Source: a virus. Taken from it: a DNA stretch of 64,000 bases. The notes under the pieces were generated by a model. That model was given only the letters and a program-made list of their open reading frames with translations, ran no database searches and was not told the DNA's origin. Shown here one piece after another: positions 26,928-44,117 of this stretch. Every line of letters begins with the position of its first letter. Position 1 is the first letter of the stretch. The stretch lies in the IMG/VR virus record IMGVR_UViG_3300044658_000058, positions 89,293 through 153,292 of that record; one strand, 5' to 3'. The position numbers and the translations under genes were made by a program.

Positions 26928-27556
26928 TCTTCAAATTTCCGAAATTTTTTTGATTTGCTGACGCCGGGGAAGCGGCGCTTCGACGGCTTTTTGATATTCG
27001 GGTCTGGCAAGGATTCGAAGGTCGCATTTGCCTTAAGTGCCCGGTTTTTGATCATGTCGTTGATCTTGTCGATGTTCAACCCCATCTCGGGAAAAGCGTT
27101 GGCAAGCGTCGTTGCTTCTTCCTGTGTCGGCAAATTTTGGGGTGGTGATATGCCGGGCATAAAAATTTTTGGCGGATTGTCAGCGATGTGTTTTTGTGCA
27201 GCTTCGATTTCCGCTAAACACTCCGCATCTTCAATCTGTTTCTTGCGGATGTACTCTTGTGCTTCCTCTAGTGTGACATTGTAGGCATGATTTTTGCGCT
27301 GTCTGCCCAATGTATCACGCATTTCATAAGTATTGGCGAAATGCCAATCATACTTTATCTTGTTGTAATAGTTGCCCACATACTCTTCAACATTGTAGTT
27401 GCCCTTGTCATTAGGCACAATGCGATAAGTCCTTTCCGGATACTCTGGAACATCGTCGGTGAGTTCTATTTTCTTCTTCGTTTCAGTTTCGGAATAAGAA
27501 ACGGCAAAAATAATACAACCAATAGCTATGGCTATAATCAATAGGTAAAAGATCAT
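26924..27556 (-). CDS. membrane-anchored hypothetical protein
   Basis: N-terminal TM helix. Confidence 0.75.
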   Translation of the reverse strand: MIFYLLIIAIAIGCIIFAVSYSETETKKKIELTDDVPEYPERTYRIVPNDKGNYNVEEYVGNYYNKIKYDWHFANTYEMRDTLGRQRKNHAYNVTLEEAQEYIRKKQIEDAECLAEIEAAQKHIADNPPKIFMPGISPPQNLPTQEEATTLANAFPEMGLNIDKINDMIKNRALKANATFESLPDPNIKKPSKRRFPGVSKSKKFRKFEE

Positions 27557-27867
27557 GCTTCTAATAGTTCTTCGAGTTTATCTGCTATTTGTGGAAATGT
27601 GAGCTTATCAACATCATTCCATTCCATGATTTGAGTAAGAACACCGGGCGGAAGCTCATAATATATAACAAGGTTAGGGATGGACCAAAAATCCTTGGGA
27701 CTGGCGATTTGACGCATTAGACCAAGCGCACAGTAAGAGTAGTCTTCGGCTCTTGGCTTTTTGATATCACTGGATTTCTCTCTGCGATGAATACCGGCTG
27801 TTTGTTCCCACTTGCCAGAGCGAAGTTCAGAAAGGAACAGTTTCATTTTCTCGGAAATCATCATCAA
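27553..27867 (-). CDS. CCLG/ND-family protein
   Basis: LRSG.W.Q, YCALG, WND...TF.QIAD.LE. Confidence 0.75.
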   Translation of the reverse strand: MMMISEKMKLFLSELRSGKWEQTAGIHRREKSSDIKKPRAEDYSYCALGLMRQIASPKDFWSIPNLVIYYELPPGVLTQIMEWNDVDKLTFPQIADKLEELLEA

Positions 27868-27886
27868 ACTCCATGTGAATTGTCAG

Positions 27887-27957
27887 AATATAGAATAACT
27901 CAAAGAGAAAAGTCAAGTTCTTTCTCGCTTGACTTTCTCCAATAGGCGTGTTATATT
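27887..27957. promoter_or_regulatory. back-to-back sigma70-type early promoters
   Basis: Minus TTGACT(27916)-18-TATATT; plus TTGACT(27929)-17-TATATT. Confidence 0.7.
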
Positions 27958-27988
27958 AATGAAGTTTATTAGAGATTGGATTTGATCA

Positions 27989-28201
27989 ATGCCACATGTC
28001 ACGTCTGGGATGATCCCCGCACCATCCGAACTTTACCAGATGAATCAATGCGTGGAGTTCATGGAAAAGGTGGAAACCACCTTACAGAAAATCGGGCAGA
28101 GGACGCAACATCCCCGGATCATGGCATTAGCCAGTAGCACGACCGGATTAAGATCGGCTATTCAAGATTTCGTTGAGGGAAAAAATACCCCGACTGAGTA
28201 G
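27989..28201 (+). CDS. hypothetical early protein
   Basis: Single plus-strand ORF after a promoter. Confidence 0.6.
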   Translation: MPHVTSGMIPAPSELYQMNQCVEFMEKVETTLQKIGQRTQHPRIMALASSTTGLRSAIQDFVEGKNTPTE

Positions 28202-28320
28202 CGGAGGGGGTTCCAAAATCGGCTTGATTGGAAACGCTACTAGCCGGGGCCGAAGGTCAGCCAAGTTCAGCCAGAATTTGAACTTGGCGATAAAATTCTA
28301 CCAACCTCTTTGGCAAAGTC

Positions 28321-28362
28321 AAGAAAGAAAAGACCGGTGGAAACGAGGGTAACCACCGGTCT
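28321..28362 (-). terminator. intrinsic terminator
   Basis: AGACCGGTGG/CCACCGGTCT stem with T-rich tail on the minus strand. Confidence 0.65.
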
Positions 28363-28447
28363 AACCCCTAGCCTCTGGAATGGGGGGGCAAACCGTTTGC
28401 GACTAGGGACCATGTTGTTACGAAATCTGATGGCTGGTGTCAAGGGA

Positions 28448-28630
28448 CTAAGAATGCGTGGACAAAAATATCTGCACCACGGCAAGTATCACGATGAAAG
28501 GTATCGTGATCTTGTATCCAAGGCTTGAACCAGCGGTAAAAGAGAACACCATGATCGAAGCCAGCACAAGTTGCAGGAATCCGATCAATGCAAATGTCGG
28601 TGCCATCAAACTAAACGAAACGTCACTCAC
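28448..28630 (-). CDS. small membrane protein
   Basis: Two hydrophobic segments. Confidence 0.6.
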   Translation of the reverse strand: MSDVSFSLMAPTFALIGFLQLVLASIMVFSFTAGSSLGYKITIPFIVILAVVQIFLSTHS

Positions 28631-28856
28631 CTTCTTTTTCTTCTTTCTTGTACCAGCCGAGGCGGTTCAGCATCTTTTCAATATCTTCCATGGACGAGCA
28701 CGGCCCGTCAAAATTTTCGTCGCCCAAAATGAGCGCCAGAAAAACTTTTTTCTTGTCGTTGTGCCTGAATTCTGCCCATGAGCGATCATCGCCATAATGC
28801 CGAAAATTGCGGAGGCGAACGACTGAACCGTTTCCAATTGTCAACAGATCGTTCAT
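28623..28856 (-). CDS. hypothetical protein
   Basis: Operon packing. Confidence 0.7.
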   Translation of the reverse strand: MNDLLTIGNGSVVRLRNFRHYGDDRSWAEFRHNDKKKVFLALILGDENFDGPCSSMEDIEKMLNRLGWYKKEEKEGE

Positions 28857-29134
28857 GAAAGTTTCCTCACAACGTCGGCAAAGGTAAACACATCTCTTTC
28901 GAACATCGCCACGACATCATGCTCATGGATTTTCAATCGAGCGATAGTCTTGTGCTTTAAATTTCTTGCCAGCACATAACCTTTCGTGTTGAAGGCCAAG
29001 GTACTTGCCGTATTGGGCTCTACCGAAGCCAGAAATTGCGTCAAGGCGCAAGTCTCTATGTTCCTTCTGTTGAATTTTTCATCGCCCTTAGTTTTGCAAA
29101 AGGCAATAAATTGTTCCGTGGAATACTCATTCAT
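28853..29134 (-). CDS. CALTQF-family protein
   Basis: FIAFCKTKG..TCALTQF..TF..VV..L. Confidence 0.75.
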   Translation of the reverse strand: MNEYSTEQFIAFCKTKGDEKFNRRNIETCALTQFLASVEPNTASTLAFNTKGYVLARNLKHKTIARLKIHEHDVVAMFERDVFTFADVVRKLS

Positions 29135-29447
29135 CGGTAAGCACCTTCACCACTTTCGAGAATGTCCGGCAAGAAAACACCCGTTCGATTTCATATGGTT
29201 CAAGCCGAAGATAACCAAGCGTCTTACCGAACCTTTCTTCCGCAAAGGGAAGGCCGGTAGCGATGCTGTATGAGACTGACGCATGGGTCGTCGGATAGAT
29301 CGACTTGAAGAACTGTGTCAATGCACAGGTGAATGGATTGGTCGGATCGAACCGCTTTGAACCCTTCGTCTTGCAAAAGGCAAGGAATTCTTCCTTTTCG
29401 TGAATCTTCGGACCAAGAACTTCCATAACATGTCCCTCACTGTTCAT
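29127..29447 (-). CDS. CALTQF-family protein
   Basis: FLAFCKTKG..TCALTQF; tandem paralogue. Confidence 0.75.
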   Translation of the reverse strand: MNSEGHVMEVLGPKIHEKEEFLAFCKTKGSKRFDPTNPFTCALTQFFKSIYPTTHASVSYSIATGLPFAEERFGKTLGYLRLEPYEIERVFSCRTFSKVVKVLTDE

Positions 29448-29465
29448 ATAACCATTATATAATGA

Positions 29466-29663
29466 TTAATCGGCAATTTGCAAGGGCAGACAATACAGTC
29501 CGGATGACGAATCGCCAGTCGCTTCCAATTCTTTTTGAGCGCCTTTGACGATTTCCATACATTCCGAATAGGTATCGAACGGCATATAGGTCATACCGTT
29601 CACATGTATCTGTTGCGACAATGGAAGATAGGACATGATAACCAAAACAAATATGGTATGCAA
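29466..29663 (-). CDS. small two-Cys membrane/secreted protein
   Basis: Hydrophobic N-terminus, FDTYSEC...YCLP. Confidence 0.65.
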   Translation of the reverse strand: MHTIFVLVIMSYLPLSQQIHVNGMTYMPFDTYSECMEIVKGAQKELEATGDSSSGLYCLPLQIAD

Positions 29664-29867
29664 TCAGAAGCTCCAATAATGTGTCGGCTGACCATTATCC
29701 GGATGACCATACCAGTCAGCCGTTCCATCCTCTTTCAGAACACATTTCTTGGGTTTGGGATTTTCCTTCGACTTCATGATCAGAACGAAGTTGAACAAAT
29801 CGAATTTTTCGTCGATTGGTATCCAGTGCGGTTCATGCTTGGGATACGTTTTGGAACCAACTTTCAT
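29664..29867 (-). CDS. hypothetical protein (W.P.....PTHYW)
   Basis: DUF551-like termini. Confidence 0.6.
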   Translation of the reverse strand: MKVGSKTYPKHEPHWIPIDEKFDLFNFVLIMKSKENPKPKKCVLKEDGTADWYGHPDNGQPTHYWSF

Positions 29868-30238
29868 AGCACCGTCTTTTCTTCCGAGCCTTCATAATGC
29901 GCAATGGCCCGATCAAATATGTTCATCACGTCGGTATGCGTGGTGGTTCGATGATCATTGTAGACGGACATGAAATTCATGCCTGTGAGAACGGAGAAAG
30001 TATTGCTGATATCCCTGAAAATTTCGACCGTTCCGGGCTTCGGATCGCCATGTTCATCAACACCACCAAGTTCATGGAAAGCACGATGCAGAGCGCCGGA
30101 CATGCACCATTTACAGGCTTGCGGGGAATTGAGTGGCGTCATGCGGCCATATTCATCCGTGGCCATATAGAACTTGGTCCAGTTTTCCGGATTGGCGATG
30201 ACGGCTTTGCCAGTTTTAAGAATGTCAATCGGTTTCAT
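29864..30238 (-). CDS. DUF6197-like protein
   Basis: PENWTK..A.D..ACKWCMSGA..YND..TTH.DV...FD.AI. Confidence 0.75.
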   Translation of the reverse strand: MKPIDILKTGKAVIANPENWTKFYMATDEYGRMTPLNSPQACKWCMSGALHRAFHELGGVDEHGDPKPGTVEIFRDISNTFSVLTGMNFMSVYNDHRTTTHTDVMNIFDRAIAHYEGSEEKTVL

Positions 30239-30246
30239 TGATTATC

Positions 30247-30633
30247 CTAAGCCTCATTGGTTTTTCCTTCCTGTTCACGGGCCTTCACGATGGCCTTGTC
30301 GAGTGCTTCGATCACTTCGGAATGCTGGCGTCCCGGCAGATCATTCCAAACGGCGACCGAGCCGTAAAAATCTCCGAAAACGGATGCCAGAGTTGCACGG
30401 GCCTTTGAATAGGCTTGATCCCATTCGTCCAAGGAAAGGCCATGGCGGTTGATGGTCTTCATGATGCCACCAACAAGGCACCAGCGACACGCAAGGGAGT
30501 CCAGAGCGCCAACCGGTTCACCATTGGCGTCTCTGCCGTTCGTGCCCTGTCCCCAATGATCGGGTTCAGACAAAAGCTCACGGGTTTCCGAGAGGACTTG
30601 TGAAGTCTTGATCATGGCATTCCCTTCGATCAC
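30247..30633 (-). CDS. DUF6197-like protein
   Basis: PDHWGQG..GRD..ACRWCLVGG..WND.PGR.HSEVI..LDKAI. Confidence 0.75.
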   Translation of the reverse strand: MIEGNAMIKTSQVLSETRELLSEPDHWGQGTNGRDANGEPVGALDSLACRWCLVGGIMKTINRHGLSLDEWDQAYSKARATLASVFGDFYGSVAVWNDLPGRQHSEVIEALDKAIVKAREQEGKTNEA

Positions 30634-30950
30634 AGTTCGATGGCCTTATCAATCAGTGCGATGACTTCGGAATGTTTGCGTTCAGGAAGGTCATTCCATT
30701 CAATGAGCGGCCCGGAATCGTCGTTATAATTTGACCCTTTGAGCGCCAAAAGCAGGCGATCACGAATCTGTCGATATTCGCCGTGATTATCACTCACCTT
30801 GCTGATGCCGCCGACAAGGCACCAACAAACACCGCTTTGAATGGATGCAGATGACCAGCCCGTACTATCCCGAGCAAAACAGCCCTTGGTCCAGTGTTCC
30901 GGGTTGGAAAAAAGCTTTTTCAGCTTTTCGAGTGATCTTTTGACATCCAT
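30630..30950 (-). CDS. DUF6197-like protein
   Basis: PEHWTKG..ARD..CWCLVGG..WND.PERKHSEVI..IDKAI; start moved to ATG 30950. Confidence 0.75.
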   Translation of the reverse strand: MDVKRSLEKLKKLFSNPEHWTKGCFARDSTGWSSASIQSGVCWCLVGGISKVSDNHGEYRQIRDRLLLALKGSNYNDDSGPLIEWNDLPERKHSEVIALIDKAIEL

Positions 30951-30954
30951 GATT

Positions 30955-31290
30955 TTATTCCGTCGGTTCCGGGTAGCGTTCGGGATGTGCCTTGAAAAGT
31001 TCGATGGCCTTGTCAAACACCGCCATGACATCTTCATGTTTGCGGTTATGTGCATCGTTCCAATGCACGATATCCCGGTGACCCAAGGCATCATAGACCG
31101 CCAAGCGAGCCGAATAGCTGGTGAAGTCGGACACTCTTTCCAAAGCACCGTTCATGCAGAATTTGCAGGCTTTTTCGCCAAGTAGTGTGGCGGTATGGCC
31201 ATTGGCATCACGGGCGTTTGAGCCTTGTGTCCACGTGTCCGGCGTGTTGATAAGCGCCTTGGCCTTGGTCAGAATTTCGAGCGTATTCAA
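30955..31290 (-). CDS. DUF6197-like protein
   Basis: PDTWTQG..ARD..ACKFCMNGA..WND..RKHEDV..VFDKAI. Confidence 0.75.
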   Translation of the reverse strand: MNTLEILTKAKALINTPDTWTQGSNARDANGHTATLLGEKACKFCMNGALERVSDFTSYSARLAVYDALGHRDIVHWNDAHNRKHEDVMAVFDKAIELFKAHPERYPEPTE

Positions 31291-31523
31291 GCGATTTCCT
31301 CCATCAGAGCCTTGGCGGCGACATAGGCACAGTCGGCCATATGCTGAATGTTTCCATCATGCCAATCGGACTGGAAACAATATTCGCATTTCCGGAACAC
31401 GTTGCGGCCCGTTTCATCGTCCTGAATGCCACGTTCTACCACGGTCTGACAGACCAGTTTCAGCTTTTTCGTTTCTTCATGGTTCAAAAGTGTCGATGCC
31501 ATTTTCATTCCCTCGCTTTTCAA
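31287..31523 (-). CDS. small Zn-finger-like hypothetical protein
   Basis: CEYC...H..DC. Confidence 0.65.
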   Translation of the reverse strand: MKSEGMKMASTLLNHEETKKLKLVCQTVVERGIQDDETGRNVFRKCEYCFQSDWHDGNIQHMADCAYVAAKALMEEIA

Positions 31524-31530
31524 GAATTTC

Positions 31531-31692
31531 GGGGCGTGGGGAGGAGTCGAACCTTGCCACTAACGAACACCACGGAAAGGGTTAACGACCTTTCTTGCAT
31601 CCGTTGCATAGACCTCTTGGGTACTCACTGGCTTCCGGAAGGGTAATGATCACTCCCCGACTTTCCACCGGCTTTCGCCTCACTATCACGCC
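31531..31692 (-). ncRNA. tRNA-like structured RNA (about 160 nt)
   Basis: Terminal stem GGCGTG/CACGCC, T-arm AGG-TTCGACT-CCT, GGC-GAAA-GCC, GAAAGG/CCTTTC; starts 6 nt after a promoter. Confidence 0.65.
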
Positions 31693-31698
31693 AACCAC

Positions 31699-31727
31699 AA
31701 GATAGGTGACGATCTGTAGAATGTCAA
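31699..31727 (-). promoter_or_regulatory. sigma70-type promoter
   Basis: TTGACA-17nt-TATCTT. Confidence 0.7.
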
Positions 31728-31737
31728 TAGTTAGATT

Positions 31738-31965
31738 CTATGTACCATGATATTCTAGCGAATAATAATATCGGATCACGAAATAGCCGGGATCGAATAT
31801 GCTCTTGGAATCCCACATGTGCCATTTCTCACGAACACGAACCCGCTCTAGCCATGCCCAACGCCGCTTGTCTTCAAGGAACACAGGACGCCATGCAAAC
31901 CACCAATCGGGTTTCTCGGGTATCCAGTCCCAAAGACGATGCCACCAATCCATTCTGAATTGCAT
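31738..31965 (-). CDS. Trp-rich hypothetical protein (WFAWRPV..W.WLE.V)
   Basis: Motif recurrent in phage hypotheticals; AGGA RBS. Confidence 0.7.
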   Translation of the reverse strand: MQFRMDWWHRLWDWIPEKPDWWFAWRPVFLEDKRRWAWLERVRVREKWHMWDSKSIFDPGYFVIRYYYSLEYHGT

Positions 31966-31986
31966 GATGTTCCTAATTAAAACTTT

Positions 31987-32030
31987 GCCGGGCTCACAGC
32001 TTCGCCGGGCTCACAGCTTCGCCGGGCTCA
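31987..32030. repeat. 17-bp tandem repeat, about 2.6 copies
   Basis: GCCGGGCTCACAGCTTC x2 plus GCCGGGCTCA. Confidence 0.9.
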
Positions 32031-32214: not shown

Positions 32215-32217
32215 GAT

Positions 32218-34414: not shown

Positions 34415-34592
34415 TCAAACAGATATGGCTATGTGTGTATGTGTCCCGTTTATCGAACTGTTTCCCCACGGCTTCACACTTCTCTAGAGTCGAGAAATAG
34501 AAGCCACCATTGCCCCATGTATCGCCAATGTTCACATCGACCATCGATACACCTGTACCGGCATACATAATCAGGATAAGCTTAATGAACAT
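34398..34592 (-). CDS. small two-Cys membrane/secreted protein
   Basis: LILIMY..FSTLEKC..ICL. Confidence 0.65.
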   Translation of the reverse strand: MFIKLILIMYAGTGVSMVDVNIGDTWGNGGFYFSTLEKCEAVGKQFDKRDTYTHSHICLIGETR

Positions 34593-35041
34593 TACGCTTC
34601 GTCCAGAATTTCGCCCGGAATGCTAAGTCCATGAGAGGCAGCATAAGATCGCATGGCAGCTTCCACGTCATAGACACCTTCAATGCCTAGTTCATCATTA
34701 GGCACGACAAAATAATGATCATGGCAGCGCTGCAATTCCACCAAGTCGTCGGTATCGATATTGGAAAACAGGTCTTTCCATGTCCCTCTCCCATAGACCA
34801 GAGTCGATATGGAGCCGATTGCGTTGCAGACTTCCGTTCCGTTATCCTTCGTTCGAAAACCAATGAAGTCGTCCGGCACAATGTGACCAATGGCACATTT
34901 CAAGCCATCAGGTGTGTGATATTCGCAGCCCAAGCCATCGCTACCCGTGGCACGTTGCCAGTTCTGGCTTCTCATGCCTTCCCAAGCCTTGTCAAAGACT
35001 TGCTGCAAATTATCGAATGGCACAGCGTTCGTATCAGTCAT
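34592..35041 (-). CDS. KCAIGH/CHD-family protein
   Basis: LQQVFDKAW.G..Q, C.Y, KCAIGH.VPD, LQRCHD, HGL.IP. Confidence 0.8.
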   Translation of the reverse strand: MTDTNAVPFDNLQQVFDKAWEGMRSQNWQRATGSDGLGCEYHTPDGLKCAIGHIVPDDFIGFRTKDNGTEVCNAIGSISTLVYGRGTWKDLFSNIDTDDLVELQRCHDHYFVVPNDELGIEGVYDVEAAMRSYAASHGLSIPGEILDEA

Positions 35042-35562
35042 TAGATTCCTACCTCGTCGGGTGAAACAGCCGTTTCCGGAACAGGCAGCACAAGATTGTG
35101 TTGCTTGGCAAACGCTTCAAAACTTTTTTTGATCTTTTCGGCAATCACATCATTATCATTGTCATAGTGATGAATGACCGTAAAGTCATGGCAATCCTGC
35201 AAAGCCGATAGTTCATGCATAGGAATGTTCTTGAACAGTTCTTTCAGTTCATTGTAGGCAGAAGCTTTGTCAGAATCGGCAGCGTAATAGATGCCGGTCA
35301 TATAATCGACCTTGCCCGGATAATTGTCGCCAGATGCGACAGTGGCAGTCCAGCGGAGTGAGTTTATAGCGCCAGTAAATGGCATTCGATGGATGATGGA
35401 GTCAGGAATTGTGTGACCAATGGCACAACGCTTTTGCTTGTCGTGGGTCAGATAGACACAAGAGCCACCACCAAAGGCCGGTTGAAAGTTTTGCTTGGCC
35501 ATCCCGAGATAGGCAGCATTAAAAAGTTCTTGTAGGTCTTTATATGGATTAATCTTCGTCAT
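35041..35562 (-). CDS. KCAIGH/CHD-family protein
   Basis: LQELFNAAY.G, RCAIGH.IPD, LQDCHD; start moved to ATG 35562. Confidence 0.8.
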   Translation of the reverse strand: MTKINPYKDLQELFNAAYLGMAKQNFQPAFGGGSCVYLTHDKQKRCAIGHTIPDSIIHRMPFTGAINSLRWTATVASGDNYPGKVDYMTGIYYAADSDKASAYNELKELFKNIPMHELSALQDCHDFTVIHHYDNDNDVIAEKIKKSFEAFAKQHNLVLPVPETAVSPDEVGI

Positions 35563-35769: not shown

Positions 35770-36195
35770 TTATGCAGTTTCAGTTGCAGGCGAACAATCA
35801 GGGACAGTCAGCCCATATGCCCTAGCATATTCCTCTAGCCGCTCTTTCATCCTCTCCGGTTGAAAGCTTCGATCATGGCACGATTGCAATGACTCCAGAG
35901 CGGATACGCTGATTTTGGAAAACAGAGTCTTCCAATCTTCACTCTTCCGGATGCCGGTTGTTATCGAAAAGAGTTGACCACCATCCGGCCCAACATAGAC
36001 CAGTTCATCGGGAATACAGTGGCCAATGGCACATTTGGTTTCATTTGCGCCACGATAGGCACAATAGTTTCGGCCATCAGAAGCCTTTATGTTGGCTTGG
36101 ACAAAGCCTTGTGCAGCCAAGCCACGATAGGCGACGTTGAACACATCTTGCAATGTTTCAAAGGGTTTTATGGAGTTCGCAGAATTCGGTTCCAT
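35770..36195 (-). CDS. KCAIGH/CHD-family protein
   Basis: LQDVFN.AY.GL, CAYRG, KCAIGH.IPD, LQSCHD; start moved to ATG 36195. Confidence 0.8.
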   Translation of the reverse strand: MEPNSANSIKPFETLQDVFNVAYRGLAAQGFVQANIKASDGRNYCAYRGANETKCAIGHCIPDELVYVGPDGGQLFSITTGIRKSEDWKTLFSKISVSALESLQSCHDRSFQPERMKERLEEYARAYGLTVPDCSPATETA

Positions 36196-36214: not shown

Positions 36215-36670
36215 TTAGGCCGCTTCCAACACGGGAATTGTAAGCTCGTATCGCTTGGCAAAGCTTTCCAACTGACGCTTCATGTGTTTGGGATTATCCA
36301 AATCCGTTATATCGGCATAATTGGTAGGAAGGCGAGCATTGTCATGGCAAGCCTGCAATGAACACAATGCACTTAGCGGAATGTTCTTGAATAGTTCGTT
36401 CCATTCCGGAAAATGTTTCTCTTGCTGTCCCGATGGATCATCATGTGTGTATCCAGTCAGAATGCGATAAAGACTTTTCGTGCCGATATCAGCCGTTACC
36501 ATTTCATCGGGAACAACATGGCCAATGGCACACTTCGTTCCATTCTCGCCCCGATAGGCACAGGCAACCTGACCGCCCGCAGTAATCGTTATGGCACGTC
36601 GCCAGTTCTGTTTTGCGAGTCCGACATAAGCCTTGTCGAAAATTTCTTGTAACGATTCGTAAGGTTTCAT
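36215..36670 (-). CDS. KCAIGH/CHD-family protein
   Basis: LQEIFDKAY.GL, CAYRG, KCAIGH.VPD, LQACHD. Confidence 0.8.
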   Translation of the reverse strand: MKPYESLQEIFDKAYVGLAKQNWRRAITITAGGQVACAYRGENGTKCAIGHVVPDEMVTADIGTKSLYRILTGYTHDDPSGQQEKHFPEWNELFKNIPLSALCSLQACHDNARLPTNYADITDLDNPKHMKRQLESFAKRYELTIPVLEAA

Positions 36671-36683: not shown

Positions 36684-37166
36684 TCAGATAGATGGTTTGC
36701 AGCCTTTGCCATCGGCAAAGATACGACGCCATGGCGTTTGAGAGCCACCAAGGATCATGGGTTCCAGAATGTCGGCAATCTCGGATGGTCGAATGTTCGA
36801 ATCGTCGTTCAGAGCCACCAATGAACTATATGGGTTCTTGCGAAACCAATGGTTTGCATCATCCAAACGAAAATAGTCCGGATATTCCTTCACGACCTTG
36901 AAATGGCCAGAATGCGAGAACATTCCAAGAGCATCTTTGATGGAGTCGGGCAATGAATAGGCATCGCCTTCATACTTCCATTGTTCATTGACATCATCAA
37001 AGACCGACGCAACACCCATCACATCGCACATATGACCGAGGCAGCATCGAGCCCTTCCACGACCACGCAAAACACCTTGTGCTTTGTGCAATCCCGGTTT
37101 TCGAAGATACGCAATGATCTTCTTTCGGTTCGCTAGAATTTCATCGTCTGTGTAATCAGTTTTCAT
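36684..37166 (-). CDS. CCLG/ND-family protein
   Basis: DDEILANRKK, RCCLGHMCD, L..LNDD, IADILE. Confidence 0.8.
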   Translation of the reverse strand: MKTDYTDDEILANRKKIIAYLRKPGLHKAQGVLRGRGRARCCLGHMCDVMGVASVFDDVNEQWKYEGDAYSLPDSIKDALGMFSHSGHFKVVKEYPDYFRLDDANHWFRKNPYSSLVALNDDSNIRPSEIADILEPMILGGSQTPWRRIFADGKGCKPSI

Positions 37167-37247: not shown

Positions 37248-37712
37248 TCATTTCTTTTCGATCCGAGTCCATGGTGAAACATGACTGTCACCATAGATAA
37301 TTCCTTCGAGGAAATGGCCGATAGCATCCGGTTGGATTGTTGAGTCATCGTTCAGATTGGCCAGCGAGTCGAAGCAGCCATTTTCATAACGAAAATAGTT
37401 GATGTAGCTGTTTTCTTCCTTGGTGTTGTCATAGAATCGACCAGCGGAGTCATTCATGCCAAGGGCAGCGACCAGAGAGTCCGGCAAATTATATTTTTCG
37501 TTATCATAGAACCACTCACCAGATGCATTTTTCTTGCCATCTAGGCCCATTGCATCACACATATGACCGAGGCAACAGCGCCCGCCAACGGAGTTGCGCA
37601 ACTGGCCTTTGGCCTTCCGAAGTTCCGGATTTTTTAGATAGTCAACGACCTTCCGGCGATTGGCCAAAATTTCATCATCAGACCAAAATTTTCCGTCTGT
37701 CAGCATGACCAT
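37248..37712 (-). CDS. CCLG/ND-family protein
   Basis: DDEILANRRK, RCCLGHMCD, LANLNDD. Confidence 0.8.
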   Translation of the reverse strand: MVMLTDGKFWSDDEILANRRKVVDYLKNPELRKAKGQLRNSVGGRCCLGHMCDAMGLDGKKNASGEWFYDNEKYNLPDSLVAALGMNDSAGRFYDNTKEENSYINYFRYENGCFDSLANLNDDSTIQPDAIGHFLEGIIYGDSHVSPWTRIEKK

Positions 37713-39152: not shown

Positions 39153-39445
39153 TGTGTTCCTTTGTGTTCAGCGGATTGCGATGTTTTCTTGCAAGGATGT
39201 TGTGTTGTGTGAGTGAGTCATAGAGATTGTTTGCATGATTTTCTTAGTGAATGCAAAAATGTTCGTTCGAACGGAATCCTGTTTTTCGGCCATTTGCGAA
39301 AAATGTCACGTATTGACATGTCCCATGTCCGATACTGTCTCAATATACTAACCGGTACTAATCTATAACCAGTTGCAAATCGAAACCAGTGGGGTTCATG
39401 GGAAACCAGTTCGGTTATAGATCGTCGATATCATGGAAATGGGCA

Positions 39446-39631
39446 TCATTTGCCTTTTATGGCACCTAGCAATTCGAACCACATGGCCCATAGAGCCGTA
39501 TAGATCGCCACAGGCATATTACCATGATAAGCGGAAATTAGCGACGATACAGTGAATGCAACGATAATGATTGCACGAATAAGTTTAATTATAATGTATG
39601 CTTTGGTGTTTGTTGTGTTCATCGGTTCCAT
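39446..39631 (-). CDS. small membrane protein
   Basis: Hydrophobic; coupled to the upstream stop. Confidence 0.6.
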   Translation of the reverse strand: MEPMNTTNTKAYIIIKLIRAIIIVAFTVSSLISAYHGNMPVAIYTALWAMWFELLGAIKGK

Positions 39632-39825
39632 TAAAAGTCCCCCTGATACTCAGTTCCCGGCTTCACCAGTTCGGCTTTGCAGACCGGACAGGCCACCACC
39701 ATTTCGGAACCACAATCGCCCTTTCTCCAATCCTTCTCTTCAATTTCGAGGACGGATTTACAGAGGTGACATGTCAGTTCAAGCGGTGCATATTGTGGTA
39801 ATGGAGAATGGACTTTGATTTTCAT
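39631..39825 (-). CDS. small zinc-ribbon protein
   Basis: CHLC...CPVC. Confidence 0.7.
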   Translation of the reverse strand: MKIKVHSPLPQYAPLELTCHLCKSVLEIEEKDWRKGDCGSEMVVACPVCKAELVKPGTEYQGDF

Positions 39826-39831
39826 TTTTTA

Positions 39832-40076
39832 GGATCAATCCTTTGATCATAATTCATTTCAATGGCGATATATCGAAACAGTCGATTTGACTTTCTGAAA
39901 AGACTTCATGCGGACCATGCCACAAGCCCGTGTAATGATACTTTGCCAGTATGCGAGTCTTGGCATTGATGCAGGCATCCATGGAGTCCATTGGAACAAT
40001 CGTCGGAACCGTATTGCCGCCATAGGTATAGGTGAAAATGATAAGTAAAACTTTGATCATGGGATCAATCCTTTGA
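39832..40076. repeat. 15-bp direct repeat flanking one gene
   Basis: GGATCAATCCTTTGA at 39832-39846 and 40062-40076 (RBS module on the minus strand). Confidence 0.8.
39854..40060 (-). CDS. small two-Cys membrane/secreted protein
   Basis: VLLIIFTY..MDSMDAC..DCF. Confidence 0.65.
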   Translation of the reverse strand: MIKVLLIIFTYTYGGNTVPTIVPMDSMDACINAKTRILAKYHYTGLWHGPHEVFSESQIDCFDISPLK

Positions 40077-40084
40077 CCTGATTG

Positions 40085-40588
40085 TTATGACTTCAAATTG
40101 TCCGGTAGCGGTTTAACGTCCCAATCTGATGGAGCCGCAAACGGTTCTGGATTGGTGCGTGGTGGCATATTTTCGGGTTTCATCTCGGGAATAATTAACC
40201 CATTGATTACTGCGAAATTGGCCAGAAGCGTTTTCATCTTCTCCGGATCGTCTTCAATTCCAATGCTTCCGTCTGTGTAAATCGTTGCCTTGTCATGGCA
40301 ATCCTGTAATTCGGCAAGTTTCGTTTTCGAAATATTCTGGAAAAGTTTCTTCCATCCTTTAGCACAGTCTAGTGCAGACCAAAACGGAATTGAGTTGACT
40401 TCCGGATCATACAATTCATCAGGTATCAGATGGCCCACGGCACATTTCTTTCCATCAGAGGCACGATAAAGACATGATGAGCCATAGCGACCCATGCCAA
40501 ATGAGCGGGTAAATCCTTGTGCAGCAAGCCCGAGATAGGCTTTGGTGAATGCCTCTTGTAGGTCTTTGTACGGAACAATTTCGTTCAT
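40085..40588 (-). CDS. KCAIGH/CHD-family protein
   Basis: LQEAF.KAY.GL, CLYR, KCAVGH.IPD, LQDCHD; start moved to ATG 40588. Confidence 0.8.
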   Translation of the reverse strand: MNEIVPYKDLQEAFTKAYLGLAAQGFTRSFGMGRYGSSCLYRASDGKKCAVGHLIPDELYDPEVNSIPFWSALDCAKGWKKLFQNISKTKLAELQDCHDKATIYTDGSIGIEDDPEKMKTLLANFAVINGLIIPEMKPENMPPRTNPEPFAAPSDWDVKPLPDNLKS

Positions 40589-40589
40589 T

Positions 40590-40943
40590 TTATTTTCCAA
40601 ATATTTTGGGTTGAAAGTTTTCATAGTTTCGAATGCGCTTTTCTTGCGCACGTTGTTCTGCTTGCTCTTGTTCACTCCGGATGATGGAATCCCCGAGGAA
40701 GAACGCCAGAAGCACGACAAGCGCTGCAATCATAACCCAGATAATGACCAGCGGATGCAGTGCGATATAGGGAAAGCCGGTTGTGACCAGCCATTGCCAG
40801 AGCAAAACCATAATCTGGAAAAGCCAGACAACGAGAAAAGCAAATGCGCACAAGGCAAAGGCGAAAAGAGTAAGAACAACAAGCCCGAGGAAAATGCGCT
40901 TGTTCACATCTTCAAAGCTTAGATTTTGATCACGAAATTTCAA
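40590..40943 (-). CDS. membrane protein
   Basis: Long hydrophobic segments. Confidence 0.7.
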   Translation of the reverse strand: MKFRDQNLSFEDVNKRIFLGLVVLTLFAFALCAFAFLVVWLFQIMVLLWQWLVTTGFPYIALHPLVIIWVMIAALVVLLAFFLGDSIIRSEQEQAEQRAQEKRIRNYENFQPKIFGK

Positions 40944-41557
40944 TGGGATTCACCTTCCTCCGGTTCCCAATCAAACCAGCGGTTGACGCTTCTCTTTTCA
41001 CCAAACGCCTTTTCAAGTTCCCATTGTTCGGCGGCCGTCAGTCCGTCGATGGCTTCGATGTCCTCTTGCGTGAACATATCGCCAGCCGTGCCTATGGAAA
41101 TGTCATCAGTCGGATCGAGAATGGCGTTGATCGGCTTGCCATGACCCTTGAACGTTTGTCTCAGGTCTTCCCGCTCTTGTTCAAGGCGCTGATTGTCGAT
41201 TACGTCATTTGCATAGATCGAGCTTTGCCGTTCGAATTCGCCCGGATAGAACCAAATCTTTTTCATGGCGTCTCTCTCATAGTAATCCTGTGTCAATTTT
41301 CGGATGTATGGGGATAGCCCTGCTATCCTTTCCGATGGCTGATTGAATGCCTCTCTTTCCCACACAGAAGGCCGTAGGAGAGCGTTTCCGAGTTTGTAGG
41401 ACAGGACCAGCACCCAAGATAAAATAGCGCTTAAAATGAGCGCAATTCCGATGTAGGGTACAAGGTAAAGCAGAGCGAAACAGACAGCGCCCGCCGATAT
41501 GATCAGGAGCCCGAGCCCGAGACTTGTAAAGAAATGGCGATCAAGCGGCGGCATCAA
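40940..41557 (-). CDS. membrane protein with acidic C-terminus
   Basis: Two N-terminal TM segments. Confidence 0.65.
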   Translation of the reverse strand: MMPPLDRHFFTSLGLGLLIISAGAVCFALLYLVPYIGIALILSAILSWVLVLSYKLGNALLRPSVWEREAFNQPSERIAGLSPYIRKLTQDYYERDAMKKIWFYPGEFERQSSIYANDVIDNQRLEQEREDLRQTFKGHGKPINAILDPTDDISIGTAGDMFTQEDIEAIDGLTAAEQWELEKAFGEKRSVNRWFDWEPEEGESH

Positions 41558-41788
41558 TCAGTCCTTTGGTGGATGCAGAATGTTCAAAACATTCATGACA
41601 CCAAACATTGTGGTGTGTTGTTGCGAAGTCATGGGTATTGAATGTGCTAGTCTCGCAAGACTGATAAGAGCTTCACGAACGGCAAACAGTTGTGCCGGTG
41701 AAAGCTGCTTTATGTGTTCGGCAACGATGGCGACTCGCTTGTCATGTGAAAGCAAATAACCTTGGCCGTTTTGATCATCGATATCCAT
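41558..41788 (-). CDS. hypothetical protein
   Basis: Operon packing. Confidence 0.65.
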   Translation of the reverse strand: MDIDDQNGQGYLLSHDKRVAIVAEHIKQLSPAQLFAVREALISLARLAHSIPMTSQQHTTMFGVMNVLNILHPPKD

Positions 41789-41791
41789 TGT

Positions 41792-42025
41792 TCAATGCTT
41801 CGTTGGCGTGTCGAATTCGCCCGTGTAATAGAGCGAGTTTTGCATATAGGCACGTTGTTCCAGTTCATCGACTCTTCGTTGAACAGCGTCGAGCATGATA
41901 CGAGTCCGCATGAGATTGATCGCAGCTTGTAAATCTGTCCGTCTCTTGCCGAACACGGTCCCGGCAGCAAAGCCTATCGAGCAACCAACACAAAGCATCA
42001 GAAACGACATGTCACGATTCCTCAT
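41792..42025 (-). CDS. membrane-anchored coiled-coil protein
   Basis: N-terminal TM. Confidence 0.6.
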   Translation of the reverse strand: MRNRDMSFLMLCVGCSIGFAAGTVFGKRRTDLQAAINLMRTRIMLDAVQRRVDELEQRAYMQNSLYYTGEFDTPTKH

Positions 42026-42446
42026 TTTTCAGACCCATATCCGGCGTTACACCGCCAAGCGCAAAGTCGATATCATTGTCCATTACTTTGATATCGTCGG
42101 CATCCAACTCGGGTTCGAACGAGGTTGTATCGACATCGATCACATCGCCCGTAAAGTTCGTGCCAAAGAAAGTGGCTTCGGTTCGTTCAAGCTCTTTCAA
42201 GCCCTTTTCAATATCAATTGAGCGGTTCGGATTGATGTAACATTCGCCCGTCAGTTCCGCATGGCGCAATCGATAGAATTCGATCAAGGCAATTTCCTTG
42301 GTACGAAATGGGCCGTGATGGAGCCCGGTTGTCGATGGAAAATACCAATCGCCTTCTGGCGTTCCTCGCAACATCAGCAATTCGGTGTGAACCATCGGCA
42401 AATCGATTTCTTCGATTTCACCTTGTTCATTTGTGCGATACGCCAT
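42012..42446 (-). CDS. hypothetical acidic protein
   Basis: AGGA RBS. Confidence 0.7.
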   Translation of the reverse strand: MAYRTNEQGEIEEIDLPMVHTELLMLRGTPEGDWYFPSTTGLHHGPFRTKEIALIEFYRLRHAELTGECYINPNRSIDIEKGLKELERTEATFFGTNFTGDVIDVDTTSFEPELDADDIKVMDNDIDFALGGVTPDMGLKNEES

Positions 42447-42534
42447 GGGCCATACATCCTATTTTTTCAGCTTGTTCACATTCGTCGCTCAATGAGCCAA
42501 AGCGCCTTCGACAATTCACCCCAAGTGCTTGATT

Positions 42535-42822
42535 TTAAAAGCGCATGTTCGAGTCGTGGCGGTTTTGAATCCCGTCCACAATATACACTCTCATGCTATC
42601 CTTTGTCAAAAAATATGACCAGCGAGCTTGGCCGAATCTTTTCTTACCAAACTTGGCCTTGGCAAATTGTGCAATCGGACAATTTTGCGTGTCATCCGGA
42701 TCATATAATTCGTCCCTTGGTTGTTCTTTCACGAATGCACGAAAGCGTGACCAAATGGTGTTCGGATGGTTAGGCGCATTGTCCGTCTTAGGATCAATCG
42801 TCTCTGTTGTCGAAAGCATCAT
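42535..42822 (-). CDS. CALTQF-family-related protein
   Basis: FRAFVKEQP...YD...NCPIAQF. Confidence 0.6.
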   Translation of the reverse strand: MMLSTTETIDPKTDNAPNHPNTIWSRFRAFVKEQPRDELYDPDDTQNCPIAQFAKAKFGKKRFGQARWSYFLTKDSMRVYIVDGIQNRHDSNMRF

Positions 42823-43054
42823 TGTAATTCCGTTCATTTTTGATTGCAGACGGAAGCGGTTTAGACCAAAAACGAGAGTCAAGTAGTTTGGTAATCCATG
42901 TCGCCAATAGCGCAAAGAAGCCGAGCAATGAACCAAGAACGATAGCGCCTATGGCATCTCCATATGTTCTTGGTTTCATCCAATACCAGATGCACCATAC
43001 CCCCGATACGGAATGTGCAGCGACTAGAAGAACAATCGGACCAATTTCCATCAT
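42794..43054 (-). CDS. membrane protein
   Basis: Two hydrophobic segments. Confidence 0.6.
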   Translation of the reverse strand: MMEIGPIVLLVAAHSVSGVWCIWYWMKPRTYGDAIGAIVLGSLLGFFALLATWITKLLDSRFWSKPLPSAIKNERNYNDAFDNRDD

Positions 43055-43356
43055 TGGAATGTCTCTTCTATCCAGTCGGCAATCATCGGAAATGTCGAAC
43101 CGGAATCATTCATGCGAACAATGTGACCTAAATCCAACAAATTCCACCCATAGTAATCCATCGATTGGCCACGAACGCCAGCTAGTGTTTTGAGATGCCA
43201 AGCAAGTCCGGATGCACAATAACAAATCGTGTCGTTTTCTTCATCGTACCATTCCGAAACATAGAATGTTTGCGTGTATTCTCCGCTTCTAAGAGCTTCG
43301 ATGAGAGTTTGCCGATGTTTCTTTTGTTCTTCGGCAGTGAAAATTGTGTCACTCAT
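43051..43356 (-). CDS. CCLG/ND-family protein
   Basis: ALRSGEY.Q, CYCASG, MND.G.TF..IAD.IE. Confidence 0.75.
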   Translation of the reverse strand: MSDTIFTAEEQKKHRQTLIEALRSGEYTQTFYVSEWYDEENDTICYCASGLAWHLKTLAGVRGQSMDYYGWNLLDLGHIVRMNDSGSTFPMIADWIEETFQ

Positions 43357-43711
43357 TAGGTGTATTTACATCTTTCTTAAAATTTTGATCGAGCCATACC
43401 CAAGGCGAGCCCGGCGACTTTGAAAGTAACTCACATTTCCATTGGGGTTCATGCGCCATACATTTTATCATCCATTTGAGATTGTCATTCTCATTGGACA
43501 GAGCAATCTCTTTTTCTGTAGGCGTTCCCGACATAATAGCAGAAAGCATTATGACGGTAACGAACAAATAACCAAACAGAATAAGCGAAATGAATTTATG
43601 TTTTGATCCAAAGCCTTCGATAAAATCAATAAGTATCGTCTCAAACATATTCCCCGATACGAGGTTTCTTTCTTGCTGGCTTGAGTCGGGCATCTTCGGT
43701 TTCCTGTACAT
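43349..43711 (-). CDS. membrane-anchored protein
   Basis: TM helix; start probably near 43648. Confidence 0.6.
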   Translation of the reverse strand: MYRKPKMPDSSQQERNLVSGNMFETILIDFIEGFGSKHKFISLILFGYLFVTVIMLSAIMSGTPTEKEIALSNENDNLKWMIKCMAHEPQWKCELLSKSPGSPWVWLDQNFKKDVNTPNE

Positions 43712-44117
43712 TGGTTAAGAACAAACGTCTTGGTTCACGGCGAATGATGCCAGCTATCTTGTTGAAGTTGAAACCGGCAGCATCATTGTCATACAGAATG
43801 GAGCGGTTCTCTTGCCGCTCCACATCAATATAATTGCCTTGCGATGATTGCAGACCTACCCACTTGCAAGCCTGCAATGAAATGTAGTCGAAAGACATAG
43901 AGCGAACGGCATAGAATTCGCTTTGATTGTCGCCTTGTTCGAATTCGCCACCAGACAGAAGCTCTAGAACGCCCATTGCGCAATAAAGCTTTCGCCCATT
44001 GATCAGTTTGCAGAGCGCACCAACACCTTTCCGAAATTTTCCGGATTCGAGAGCTTGCGCCCATTTTTCCCGATTTGCCTTTTGTTCGGCAAATGACAAT
44101 TCCCGTCTATCGACCAT
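43641..44117 (-). CDS. CCLG/ND-family protein
   Basis: ANREKW..ALESG, YCAMGV, DND..F.F..IA.II. Confidence 0.75.
   Translation of the reverse strand: MVDRRELSFAEQKANREKWAQALESGKFRKGVGALCKLINGRKLYCAMGVLELLSGGEFEQGDNQSEFYAVRSMSFDYISLQACKWVGLQSSQGNYIDVERQENRSILYDNDAAGFNFNKIAGIIRREPRRLFLTNVQETEDARLKPARKKPRIGEYV

What the first reader, a model, noticed from the sequence alone, without database searches (positions are those of the whole stretch)
27553..44117. About 17 small proteins in four paralogue families sharing a Cys..G and (N/H)D architecture
Seen: KCAIGH/CHD x5 (34592, 35041, 35770, 36215, 40085), CCLG/ND x5 (27553, 36684, 37248, 43051, 43641), DUF6197-like WC..G/WND x4 (29864-31290) and CALTQF x3 (28853, 29127, 42535). 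The first three share the order N-helix, W/F.Q/K, C-x-x-G, variable middle, ND/HD, C-terminal helix; the fourth shares only the Cys-helix start. Inference: one superfamily, heavily expanded and diversified in the early region, with a conserved pocket and variable inserts. This pattern would suit a bank of ligand sponges or anti-defence effectors.
Basis: partly seen in the sequence, partly recalled or inferred. Interest (0 to 1): 0.75.

Follow-up and report, generated by a model that had tools for sequence, protein, structure and literature searches.

The report
Phage bank of Cys-motif paralogues
A 153-kb T4-like soil phage spends about 4% of its genome on 17 small genes from four families of unknown function, two of them catalogued, one very large and uncatalogued, and one tiny; these families multiply repeatedly in big phages, so they look like host-interaction proteins, but their function is untested.

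Summary
The 17 genes are real and all lie on the minus strand. No further copy exists in the 153,292-bp genome.

- **Family A (5 genes):** PHROG 17693, no Pfam or NCBIfam model. Its profile finds 26,525 protein clusters.
- **Family B (5 genes):** DUF8296 (PF26948).
- **Family C (4 genes):** DUF6197 (PF19698).
- **Family D (2 firm, 1 marginal):** a rare neighbour of DUF6197 arrays.

In each of A, B and C the fully (C: nearly) invariant set includes Cys-x-x-Gly and, 26-95 residues later, (Asn/His)-Asp.

- **B and C:** distant homologues, shown by profile comparison, a bridging gene and decoy-controlled cross-scores.
- **A:** same element order and the same weak structural neighbours, but homology is not shown.
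- **D:** not shown to belong.

Neither AlphaFold model (pLDDT 90 and 95) matches a solved fold.

Trees show that the window's copies are old paralogues with orthologues in related phages. Other phages expanded the same families independently.

The "one superfamily" reading is therefore partly supported. The pocket, the early timing and the sponge or anti-defence role are untested. This scan has met DUF6197, DUF8296 and CAIGH-type arrays before on other DNA.

The parts
34592..35041 (-). A1, family A (149 aa; LKCAIGH ... CHD)
   Evidence: phrog_17693 E 5e-13. BLASTP to other A copies E 4e-16 to 3e-25. Orthologue L001:5995-6435, support 99/98.
35041..35562 (-). A2, family A (173 aa, longest insert). 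Its stop overlaps the A1 start by 1 nt.
   Evidence: phrog_17693 E 4e-4. BLASTP E 1e-17 to 1e-24. Groups with L001:6838-7353, support 99/84.
35770..36195 (-). A3, family A (141 aa)
   Evidence: phrog_17693 E 3e-18. BLASTP to A4 E 6e-34.
36215..36670 (-). A4, family A (151 aa). This is the modelled member.
   Evidence: phrog_17693 E 1e-19. AF2 pLDDT 90.4, pTM 0.87. No Pfam or NCBIfam hit.
40085..40588 (-). A5, family A (167 aa from MNEIV; KCAVGH ... CHD), 3.4 kb away from the main block
   Evidence: phrog_17693 E 1e-15. BLASTP E 1e-17 to 5e-25.
27553..27867 (-). B1, short DUF8296-type member (102-104 aa; YCALG ... WND). It bridges to DUF6197.
   Evidence: Deep B HMM E 2e-16. Deep C (DUF6197) HMM E 0.002 over HMM positions 21-104, the only non-C hit in the genome.
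36684..37166 (-). B2, DUF8296-type (160 aa; CCLGHMC ... LND), directly upstream of A4
   Evidence: BLASTP to B3 E 2e-38. Deep B HMM E 6e-31.
37248..37712 (-). B3, DUF8296-type (154 aa)
   Evidence: Nearest Atlas clusters carry PF26948 on 44-96% of their members. The profile search finds 1260 relatives, and nearly all of those listed are annotated PF26948.
43051..43356 (-). B4, minimal DUF8296-type core (101 aa). This is the modelled member.
   Evidence: phrog_18067 E 6e-7. AF2 pLDDT 95.0, pTM 0.86.
43641..44117 (-). B5, DUF8296-type (158 aa; YCAMG ... DND)
   Evidence: phrog_18067 E 5e-5. Deep B HMM E 2e-30.
29864..30238 (-). C1, DUF6197 (124 aa)
   Evidence: PF19698 46.9 bits against a cut-off of 24.6. 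Orthologue L004:7250-7648, support 100/99.
30247..30633 (-). C2, DUF6197 (128 aa from GTG, or 122 aa from ATG at 30615)
   Evidence: PF19698 66 bits. Orthologue L001:10465-10812, support 96/89.
30630..30950 (-). C3, DUF6197 (106 aa)
   Evidence: PF19698 54.4 bits. Pairs with L004:8742-9059, support 88/91.
30955..31290 (-). C4, DUF6197 (111 aa, TTG start)
   Evidence: PF19698 64.1 bits. phrog_762 E 1e-18.
29127..29447 (-). D2, family D (106 aa; TCALTQF), just downstream of the DUF6197 array
   Evidence: BLASTP to D1 E 6e-16. No Pfam, PHROG or NCBIfam hit. Homologues lie beside DUF6197 genes in L004 and in Rhizobium phage RHph_I1_18.
28853..29134 (-). D1, family D (93 aa). Its start overlaps the D2 end by 8 nt.
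   Evidence: BLASTP to D2 E 6e-16.
42535..42822 (-). D3, marginal family D member (95 aa from MLSTT; CPIAQF). Only the N-terminal half resembles D1 and D2.
   Evidence: E 0.016 against an HMM of the four other D proteins. It is the top non-self hit among 1629 ORFs.

Best explanation
**Shown**
- The region is the small-ORF accessory part of a T4-like myophage of a soil or rhizosphere alphaproteobacterium-type host.
- It encodes 17 soluble one-domain proteins of four sequence families.
- B (DUF8296) and C (DUF6197) share one alpha+beta fold: a long N-helix, a beta-hairpin, then four helices.
- A is a separate, very large and uncatalogued family with the same layout.
- The copies are old paralogues. 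Each is kept as an orthologue in related phages.
- The same families have expanded independently in other large phages, and they also occur as fused two- and three-domain proteins.

**Inferred**
- Each protein holds one fixed polar centre. It is built from the invariant Cys-x-x-Gly that follows the hairpin and the invariant (Asn/His)-Asp that ends the penultimate helix.
- This centre is most likely a thiol-based site that binds a metal or a small ligand.
- The 26-95-residue insert between the two motifs differs in every copy and gives each its own partner.
- The bank acts on host factors during infection, in takeover or counter-defence.
For: **Phage type**
- Baseplate, tail and terminase PHROG hits.
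- Relatives are Caulobacter phage Cr30, Sinorhizobium phage phiM7, Ochrobactrum phage ORM_20 and Agrobacterium phage OLIVR5.
- The sequence is held in soil and rhizosphere metagenome runs.

**Family assignments**
-.

**Invariant residues**
- A: Q, C, C, G, H, D in 157 of 157 sequences.
- B: L, C, G, N, D in 127 of 127.
- C: W, C, G in 46 of 46, with N in 44 and D in 45.
- The Cys-to-Asp spacing varies: 40-87 residues in A, 36-95 in B, 26-56 in C.

**Structure**
- The models are confident.
- They share the order helix, hairpin, Cys, helices, a helix ending in HD or ND, then a C-terminal helix.

**B-C homology**
-.

**A-B likeness**
- Six PDB entries appear in both top-50 lists out of 48,161 chains, aligned over the same chain ranges: 4zeo, 5dbo, 5b04, 6i3m, 6cpy, 4u5b.
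- Four BFVD entries are shared.
- The B HMM scores A sequences above reversed decoys, p 1.6e-10.

**Age and expansion**
- Window copies pair with copies of the 256-kb and 196-kb relatives G001 and G002.
- Arrays in loci L014, L019, L013 and L009 and in phage Motura are phage-specific clades.

**Copy numbers and placement**
- 17 here, against 1-6 in five cultured relatives and 6-13 in five uncultured large phages.
- A, B and C are interleaved within 14 kb in G001 and 4 kb in G002.

**Fusions**
- Architectures AA x40, AAA x1 and BB x4.
- A two-domain DUF6197 protein is reported in Gordonia phages (PMC10586128).

**Source**
- Nearest Atlas clusters are 63-100% viral.
Against: - No experiment or described member exists for any of the four families.
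- The adjacency of Cys and ND/HD could not be measured.
- A is not linked to B or C by any significant score.
- In the A model, C-x-x-G is in a loop, whereas in B it starts a helix.
- The number of possible metal ligands differs between members. B1 and B5 have a single Cys in the motif.
- Strict invariance of Cys, Gly and (Asn/His)-Asp fits catalysis as well as it fits binding.
- Sigma-70-like sites are not enriched overall: 36 found against 31.3 +/- 5.7 in shuffles. Early timing is therefore unproven.
- Co-location could simply reflect a shared dumping ground for accessory genes.
Confidence: 0.4

Rival explanations
1. They are enzymes. The invariant Cys is a nucleophile or redox thiol, assisted by Asn/His-Asp. 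The variable insert sets substrate specificity, so the bank modifies or cleaves a range of host or phage molecules.
For: - Cys, Gly and (Asn/His)-Asp are 100% (C: 96-98%) conserved across 330 diverged sequences in three families. That is more typical of chemistry than of a binding scaffold.
- In the B model the Cys sits at a helix N-terminus.
- Extra nearby Cys residues are common: C-x-x-C or C-x-C in C, CC plus a third Cys in about 90% of B, and a second invariant Cys in A.
Against: - His and Asp adjacent in sequence is not a usual catalytic-triad geometry.
- B and C have no invariant His.
- Enzymes seldom need 4-8 diverged copies per genome.
Confidence: 0.25
2. They are a bank of ligand sponges. 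Each paralogue would sequester a different immune signalling nucleotide (CBASS, Thoeris, Pycsar, type III CRISPR) in a conserved pocket.
For: - They are small, soluble and phage-restricted. They have multiplied, and they occur as fused multi-domain forms that hint at oligomers.
- From general knowledge, the known sponges Tad1, Tad2 and Acb2 are likewise small oligomeric phage proteins.
Against: - No known sponge appeared among the structural neighbours. This is inconclusive, not an exclusion.
- The variable part is a surface insert rather than the conserved centre. That suits different macromolecular partners better than different small ligands.
- There are far more diverged copies per genome than there are known signal types.
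Confidence: 0.1
3. They are not one superfamily. A (and D) are unrelated to B and C. The C-x-x-G ... (N/H)D pattern is convergent or coincidental, and the families merely share the same accessory region, with unrelated functions.
For: - A-B and A-C profile comparisons are not significant, at P 0.05-0.11.
- The A HMM does not beat decoys on B or C sequences.
- The Atlas structural neighbours of A include no DUF6197 or DUF8296 cluster.
- The local structure at the Cys motif differs between the A and B models.
Against: - The fully (C: nearly) invariant residues of all three families include the same set, in the same order, at equivalent secondary-structure positions.
- The two models share unusually many weak neighbours in PDB and BFVD.
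- The families are interleaved in several phages.
Confidence: 0.2

Closest known systems
Pfam DUF6197 (PF19698) / PHROG 762
   Same: - The four C genes are members above the curated cut-off.
- The motifs are the same: W-x-Q/K-G, C-x-x-G-A, W-N-D and a C-terminal D-K-A-I-E helix.
- The family also occurs in duplicated and two-domain forms in Gordonia phages (PMC10586128).
   Different: - The family has no known function or solved structure.
- A, B and D do not hit the Pfam model.
- Here the family is one of several interleaved families.
Pfam DUF8296 (PF26948) / PHROG 18067
   Same: - The B profile retrieves 1260 proteins, and nearly all of those listed carry PF26948.
- The consensus ALRSGKYKQT...CCLGV...LND...F..IAD.IE matches B1-B5.
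   Different: - The model is absent from the local Pfam copy, so the curated cut-off could not be applied.
- B2, B3 and B5 carry a 40-50-residue insert.
- B1, B4 and B5 lack the usual CC and third Cys.
PHROG 17693 (unknown function)
   Same: All five A genes hit it, at E 4e-4 to 1e-19.
   Different: - The PHROG profile is 259 positions long, and the A genes match only about positions 13-134, so it looks like a two-domain model.
- The family has no Pfam or NCBIfam model, and 0 of 81 diverse members hit Pfam-A above chance.
- It is very large, with 26,525 clusters at E 1e-3 or better.
Phage immune-signal sponges (Tad1, Tad2, Acb2), as a functional analogy only
   Same: They are small soluble phage accessory proteins, and multi-domain or oligomer hints exist for both.
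   Different: - No sequence or fold match was seen.
- Known sponges are not reported as multi-copy diverged arrays or as having an invariant Cys (from general knowledge).
Virus multigene families that expand in host conflict (for example poxvirus K3L gene accordions), as an evolutionary analogy
   Same: There are tandem copies, and different lineages expanded independently.
   Different: - The window's copies are old (30-48% identity) and are kept as orthologues across phages.
- They are not recent, near-identical amplifications.

Membership tests
DUF6197 (PF19698) | Score above Pfam gathering cut-off (24.6 bits) | tested here: met
   C1-C4 score 46.9, 66.0, 54.4 and 64.1 bits. This holds for the four C genes only.
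DUF6197 (PF19698) | The same cut-off applied to the A, B and D genes | tested here: not met
   No A, B or D protein matches PF19698 even at E up to 1. B1 reaches only 14.9 bits, E 0.002, against a home-made DUF6197 HMM.
DUF8296 (PF26948) | Match to the Pfam model above its cut-off | not testable with these tools
   PF26948 is not in the local Pfam copy.
DUF8296 (PF26948) | Significant profile-level similarity to proteins annotated PF26948 | tested here: met
   - The B profile finds 1260 proteins at E 1e-3 or better, and nearly all of those listed are annotated PF26948.1.
- An HMM built from them hits B1-B5 at E 2e-16 to 6e-31.
- Atlas neighbours carry PF26948 on 44-96% of their members.
PHROG 17693 | HMM match to the PHROG profile | tested here: met
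   A1 5e-13, A2 4e-4, A3 3e-18, A4 1e-19, A5 1e-15.
One DUF6197/DUF8296 superfamily (B and C) | Significant colinear profile-profile match with both motifs in register | tested here: met
   - hhalign P 5e-4 over 83 columns.
- Decoy-controlled cross-scores, p 1e-9 and 1e-31.
- Bridging gene B1.
- TM 0.45/0.52.
- The hhalign probability is only 31%, so this is moderate support, not proof.
The same superfamily extended to A | Significant profile-profile or structure match of A to B or C | tested here: inconclusive
   - hhalign P 0.05-0.11.
- The B HMM beats decoys on A sequences, but the reverse does not hold.
- Weak PDB and BFVD neighbours are shared.
- No direct model-to-model comparison is available.
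The same superfamily extended to D | C-x-x-G and ND motifs, or a significant profile match | tested here: not met
   D has C-A-L-T-Q-F, with no Gly at +3, and it has no ND. hhalign P is 0.014 against B, 0.021 against C and 0.14-0.2 against A.
Nucleotide-signal sponges (Tad1/Tad2/Acb2) | Fold or sequence match to a known sponge | tested here: inconclusive
   None is listed among the BFVD or PDB neighbours of the A and B models. Absence from these lists does not exclude a match.
   Structure prediction returns confidence and secondary structure only. No coordinates are laid in /data.

The most novel reading that the evidence does not exclude
A, DUF8296 and DUF6197 (perhaps with D as a degenerate offshoot) form one vast, phage-specific superfamily. 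It would be built around a single thiol/(Asn|His)-Asp centre, a new fold with tens of thousands of members. Large phages would keep banks of these proteins as a modular counter-defence repertoire, with each paralogue neutralising a different host immune protein or signal.
Probability: 0.15. Interest if true: 0.8.

Novelty: new member of a known kind. Interest (0 to 1): 0.45.

Why it matters
These families are among the commonest unexplained genes of large phages. Family A alone has 26,525 clusters at 50% identity and no Pfam entry. Their repeated, independent multiplication marks them as likely players in phage-host conflict.

This window shows all of them side by side in one genome. It supplies a bridging sequence (B1) that ties DUF8296 to DUF6197. 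It also points to cultured phages in which deletion and expression tests are feasible: Pseudomonas phage pf16, Caulobacter phage Cr30, Sinorhizobium phage phiM7, Achromobacter phage Motura, Rhizobium phage RHph_I1_18 and Ochrobactrum phage ORM_20.

A function for one member would annotate tens of thousands of proteins.

Tried and rejected
**Profile and family searches**
- Shallow hhalign of the window paralogues alone was uninformative.
- Adding AF2-derived secondary structure to the A-B hhalign did not help; the secondary-structure score was -1.0.
- NCBIfam found nothing.
- PF26948 is absent from the local library.

**Structure searches**
- PDB by sequence found nothing at E 0.001 or better for the A, B or C profiles (best 0.07, chance-level).

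**Related sequences elsewhere**
- Megablast of the region against the phage collection found no match.
- tblastn of C4 and A4 against plasmids found no match.
- The search for related loci failed on the B alignment, which had no conserved stretch, and found no D relatives.

**Literature**
- Searches for DUF8296, the PHROG and Pfam accessions, and tandem paralogs with anti-defense found nothing. For DUF6197 there is only one genome announcement.

**Expression and RNA features**
- No RNA holder was listed for the region in public sequencing runs.
- No tRNA or Rfam family lies in the region.

**Other**
- Sigma-70-like promoter counts are not above the shuffles overall.

Full report
**What is there**

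The window is bases 89,293-153,292 of a single 153,292-bp phage contig. PHROG hits to baseplate wedge and hub, tail proteins and large terminase mark it as a T4-like myovirus. The nearest cultured relatives of the genes studied are Caulobacter phage Cr30, Sinorhizobium phages phiM7, phiM12 and phiN3, Pseudomonas phage pf16, Ochrobactrum phage ORM_20 and Agrobacterium/Rhizobium phages. The DNA is held in soil and rhizosphere metagenome runs.

Between about 27.5 and 45.7 kb lies a stretch of small minus-strand ORFs. Apart from the 17 genes of the finding, ten other ORFs tested there have no meaningful PHROG match (also for 26924 and 40940).

**The four families**

Pairwise BLASTP separates four groups cleanly.

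| Family | Genes (start coordinate) | Assignment | Evidence |
|---|---|---|---|
| A | 34592, 35041, 35770, 36215, 40085 | PHROG 17693; no Pfam or NCBIfam model | |
| B | 27553, 36684, 37248, 43051, 43641 | PHROG 18067; DUF8296 (PF26948) | |
| C | 29864, 30247, 30630, 30955 | DUF6197 (PF19698); PHROG 762 | |
| D | 28853, 29127, and marginally 42535 | no hit in any library | |

- **Family B.** A profile of the B genes finds 1260 proteins, and nearly all of those listed are pre-annotated PF26948. The nearest Atlas clusters carry PF26948. The model is missing from the local Pfam copy.
- **Family C.** All four genes pass the DUF6197 cut-off, at 47-66 bits against 24.6.
- **Family D.** D3 scores E 0.016 against an HMM of the other four known D proteins.
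- **Totals.** HMMs of all four families find no further copy in the genome. Together the 17 genes take about 6.7 kb, or 4.4% of the genome.

**Family A is large and uncatalogued**

- An exhaustive profile search over 1.84 billion cluster representatives gives 26,525 proteins at E 1e-3 or better and 18,302 at 1e-10 or better. Many carry two or three tandem domains.
- Ten of these that were looked up are all named 'hypothetical' or unnamed.
- Of 81 diverse members, none has a credible Pfam-A match.
- Atlas neighbours are viral clusters with no common Pfam family.

**Conserved and variable parts**

| Family | Sequences | Residues invariant | Residues between Cys and Asp |
|---|---|---|---|
| A | 157 | Q, C, C, G, H, D (all 157) | 40-87 |
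| B | 127 | L, C, G, N, D (all 127) | 36-95 |
| C | 46 | W, C, G (all 46); N in 44, D in 45 | 26-56 |

So the fully (in C, nearly) invariant residues of all three families include the same set, Cys-x-x-Gly followed by (Asn/His)-Asp. Length and sequence variation sit between them (alignments).

D has Cys-Ala-Leu-Thr-Gln-Phe, with no Gly, and it has no ND.

**Is it one superfamily?**

*B and C: moderately well supported.*
- Deep profiles align over 83 colinear columns at P 5e-4, with the aromatic-x-Q motif, C-x-x-G, ND and the C-terminal helix all in register.
- C-HMM scores on B sequences and B-HMM scores on C sequences exceed reversed-sequence decoys, p 1e-31 and 1e-9.
- Gene B1 is the only non-C ORF of the genome that a DUF6197-type HMM hits. 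It scores E 0.002, aligned over HMM positions 21-104. Two other DUF8296 proteins behave the same way.
- The Atlas model of B3 matches a DUF6197 cluster at TM 0.45/0.52.

*A: not demonstrated.*
- hhalign gives colinear alignments with both motifs matched, but only P 0.05 against B and 0.07-0.11 against C. Adding 106 more A sequences or secondary structure does not help.
- The A HMM does not beat decoys on B or C sequences. The B HMM does beat decoys on A sequences, p 1.6e-10.

*D: not supported.* P is 0.014 against B, 0.021 against C and 0.14-0.2 against A.

**Structure**

| Model | pLDDT | pTM | Elements in order |
|---|---|---|---|
| A4 | 90.4 | 0.87 | H7-20, E27-29, E35-37, Cys47 in a loop, H67-72, H88-93, H99-110 ending in His-Asp, H127-140 |
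| B4 | 95.0 | 0.86 | H8-24, E35-38, E43-46, Cys47 starting H48-58, H65-69, H73-84 ending in Asn-Asp, H89-100 |

The order of elements is the same in both. The local structure at the Cys differs.

The two models share an unusual number of weak neighbours:
- Six PDB entries appear in both top-50 lists: 4zeo, 5dbo, 5b04, 6i3m, 6cpy and 4u5b. They cover the same chain ranges. About 0.05 shared entries would be expected from independent lists of 50 out of 48,161 chains.
- Four BFVD entries are shared. One is a 118-aa protein of phage Motura.
- Motura carries four tandem DUF6197 genes, two of them 118 aa long.

This argues for a similar architecture, but generic helical proteins attract common neighbours. 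No coordinates are given out, so the adjacency of Cys and ND/HD could not be measured.

**Evolution and distribution**

*Trees.*
- In the family A tree, the five window copies, the four copies of a 256-kb relative (G001; loci L001-L003) and a few others form one clade, support 99/95. A1 and A2 pair with G001 copies, support 99/98 and 99/84.
- Arrays in L014 (5 copies), L019 (6), L013 (3) and L009 (3) each form phage-specific clades.
- In the DUF6197 tree, each window copy pairs with a copy from G001 or G002. C1 has support 100/99, C2 96/89, C3 88/91, and C4 lies in a 90/95 clade. Motura's four copies form their own clade, support 94/97.
- So the window's paralogues are old and individually retained, and the families have expanded repeatedly and independently elsewhere.

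*Whole-record counts (D).*

| Phage or record | A | B | C | D |
|---|---|---|---|---|
| This phage | 5 | 5 | 4 | 3 |
| Cr30 | 1 | 0 | 0 | not searched |
| phiM7 | 1 | 0 | 0 | not searched |
| pf16 | 4 | 0 | 2 | not searched |
| ORM_20 | 0 | 2 | 0 | not searched |
| RHph_I1_18 | 0 | 0 | 3 | 1 |
| G001 (256 kb) | 4 | about 3 | 6 | not searched |
| G002 (196 kb) | 1 | 1 | 5 | 1 |
| G003 | 4 | 2 | 0 | not searched |
| G004 (350 kb) | 5 | 3 | 0 | not searched |
| G005 (350 kb) | 8 | 0 | 0 | not searched |

- In G001 all copies lie within 14 kb, and in G002 within 4 kb.
- Two of pf16's four A domains lie in one 267-aa ORF.
- D homologues are known only from the window, G002 and RHph_I1_18. Each time they lie near (within about 0.3-1.6 kb of) DUF6197 genes.
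- No plasmid matches were found.

**Function**

Nothing is known for any of the families. The only paper found notes DUF6197 duplicates and a two-domain form in Gordonia phages.

My best inference, at confidence about 0.4, has three parts:
- Each protein has a fixed core with one thiol-centred polar site.
- A variable insert gives each paralogue its own partner.
- The proteins are used against host factors.

The rivals are a Cys-dependent enzyme family (0.25), unrelated families sharing a neighbourhood (0.2) and nucleotide-signal sponges (0.1).

Early expression is unproven. Eight of the nine best sigma-70-like sites (10 or more of 12 positions matched) are on the coding strand. Several lie just upstream of gene blocks, for example at 27916, 29483, 31727, 32614, 33758 and 44849. 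The total count is not above the shuffles, and no RNA run was listed.

**Relation to earlier notes of this scan**

Earlier follow-ups on other genomes described DUF8296 and DUF6197 tandem arrays and reached the same 'real, catalogued, function unknown' verdict. First-reader notes on another genome saw the CAIGH...LQxxHD family, also in tandem.

This report adds five things:
- the size and uncatalogued status of family A;
- the B1 bridge between DUF8296 and DUF6197;
- the orthologue-versus-expansion trees;
- the copy-number survey;
- the finding that A's membership in the superfamily is not shown.

Noticed in passing
window 39631-39825 (-): A 64-aa ORF has C-x-x-C near residue 19 and C-x-x-C near residue 46, so it looks like a small zinc ribbon. 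It lies between the A block and A5.
   Followed up: no
window 44395-44823 (-): A 142-aa ORF has a hydrophobic segment and an 'LQKCHEN' stretch. It gives a weak hit to the family A HMMs, at E 0.12-0.14. This is probably chance.
   Followed up: partly
window 27500-45700: Twelve other ORFs tested in this stretch have no meaningful PHROG match (weak or domain-less hits only, E about 7e-4 to 9e-4). The whole block is an ORFan-rich accessory region beside baseplate and tail genes, which are also on the minus strand.
   Followed up: partly
window 27000-46000: Eight of the nine best sigma-70-like sites (10 or more of 12 matched) are on the coding (minus) strand. Several lie just upstream of ORF starts: 27916, 29483, 31727, 32614, 33758 and 44849. 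The total count is not above the shuffles.
   Followed up: partly
G001 (locus L003 record) about 74.8-89.2 kb: A 256-kb uncultured phage holds about 13 interleaved A, B and C copies in 14 kb. Several are one-to-one orthologues of the window's genes, so the bank is syntenic across phages of very different genome size.
   Followed up: partly
Pseudomonas phage pf16 KU873925.1 153644-154375: Two family A domains lie in one 267-aa open frame. This is a natural two-domain fusion in a cultured phage, and it probably corresponds to the best BFVD hit of the A model (258 aa).
   Followed up: no
window genes C2, C4 and B1: The protein searches list these window proteins as also seen on a 13,690-bp contig. 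The region therefore exists in a second assembly or sample.
   Followed up: no
L026 (Rhizobium phage RHph_I1_18) 5007-6357 and 8648-8986: A family D homologue lies about 300 bp upstream of two tandem DUF6197 genes, and a third DUF6197 copy is 2.3 kb further on. All are annotated as hypothetical proteins.
   Followed up: partly
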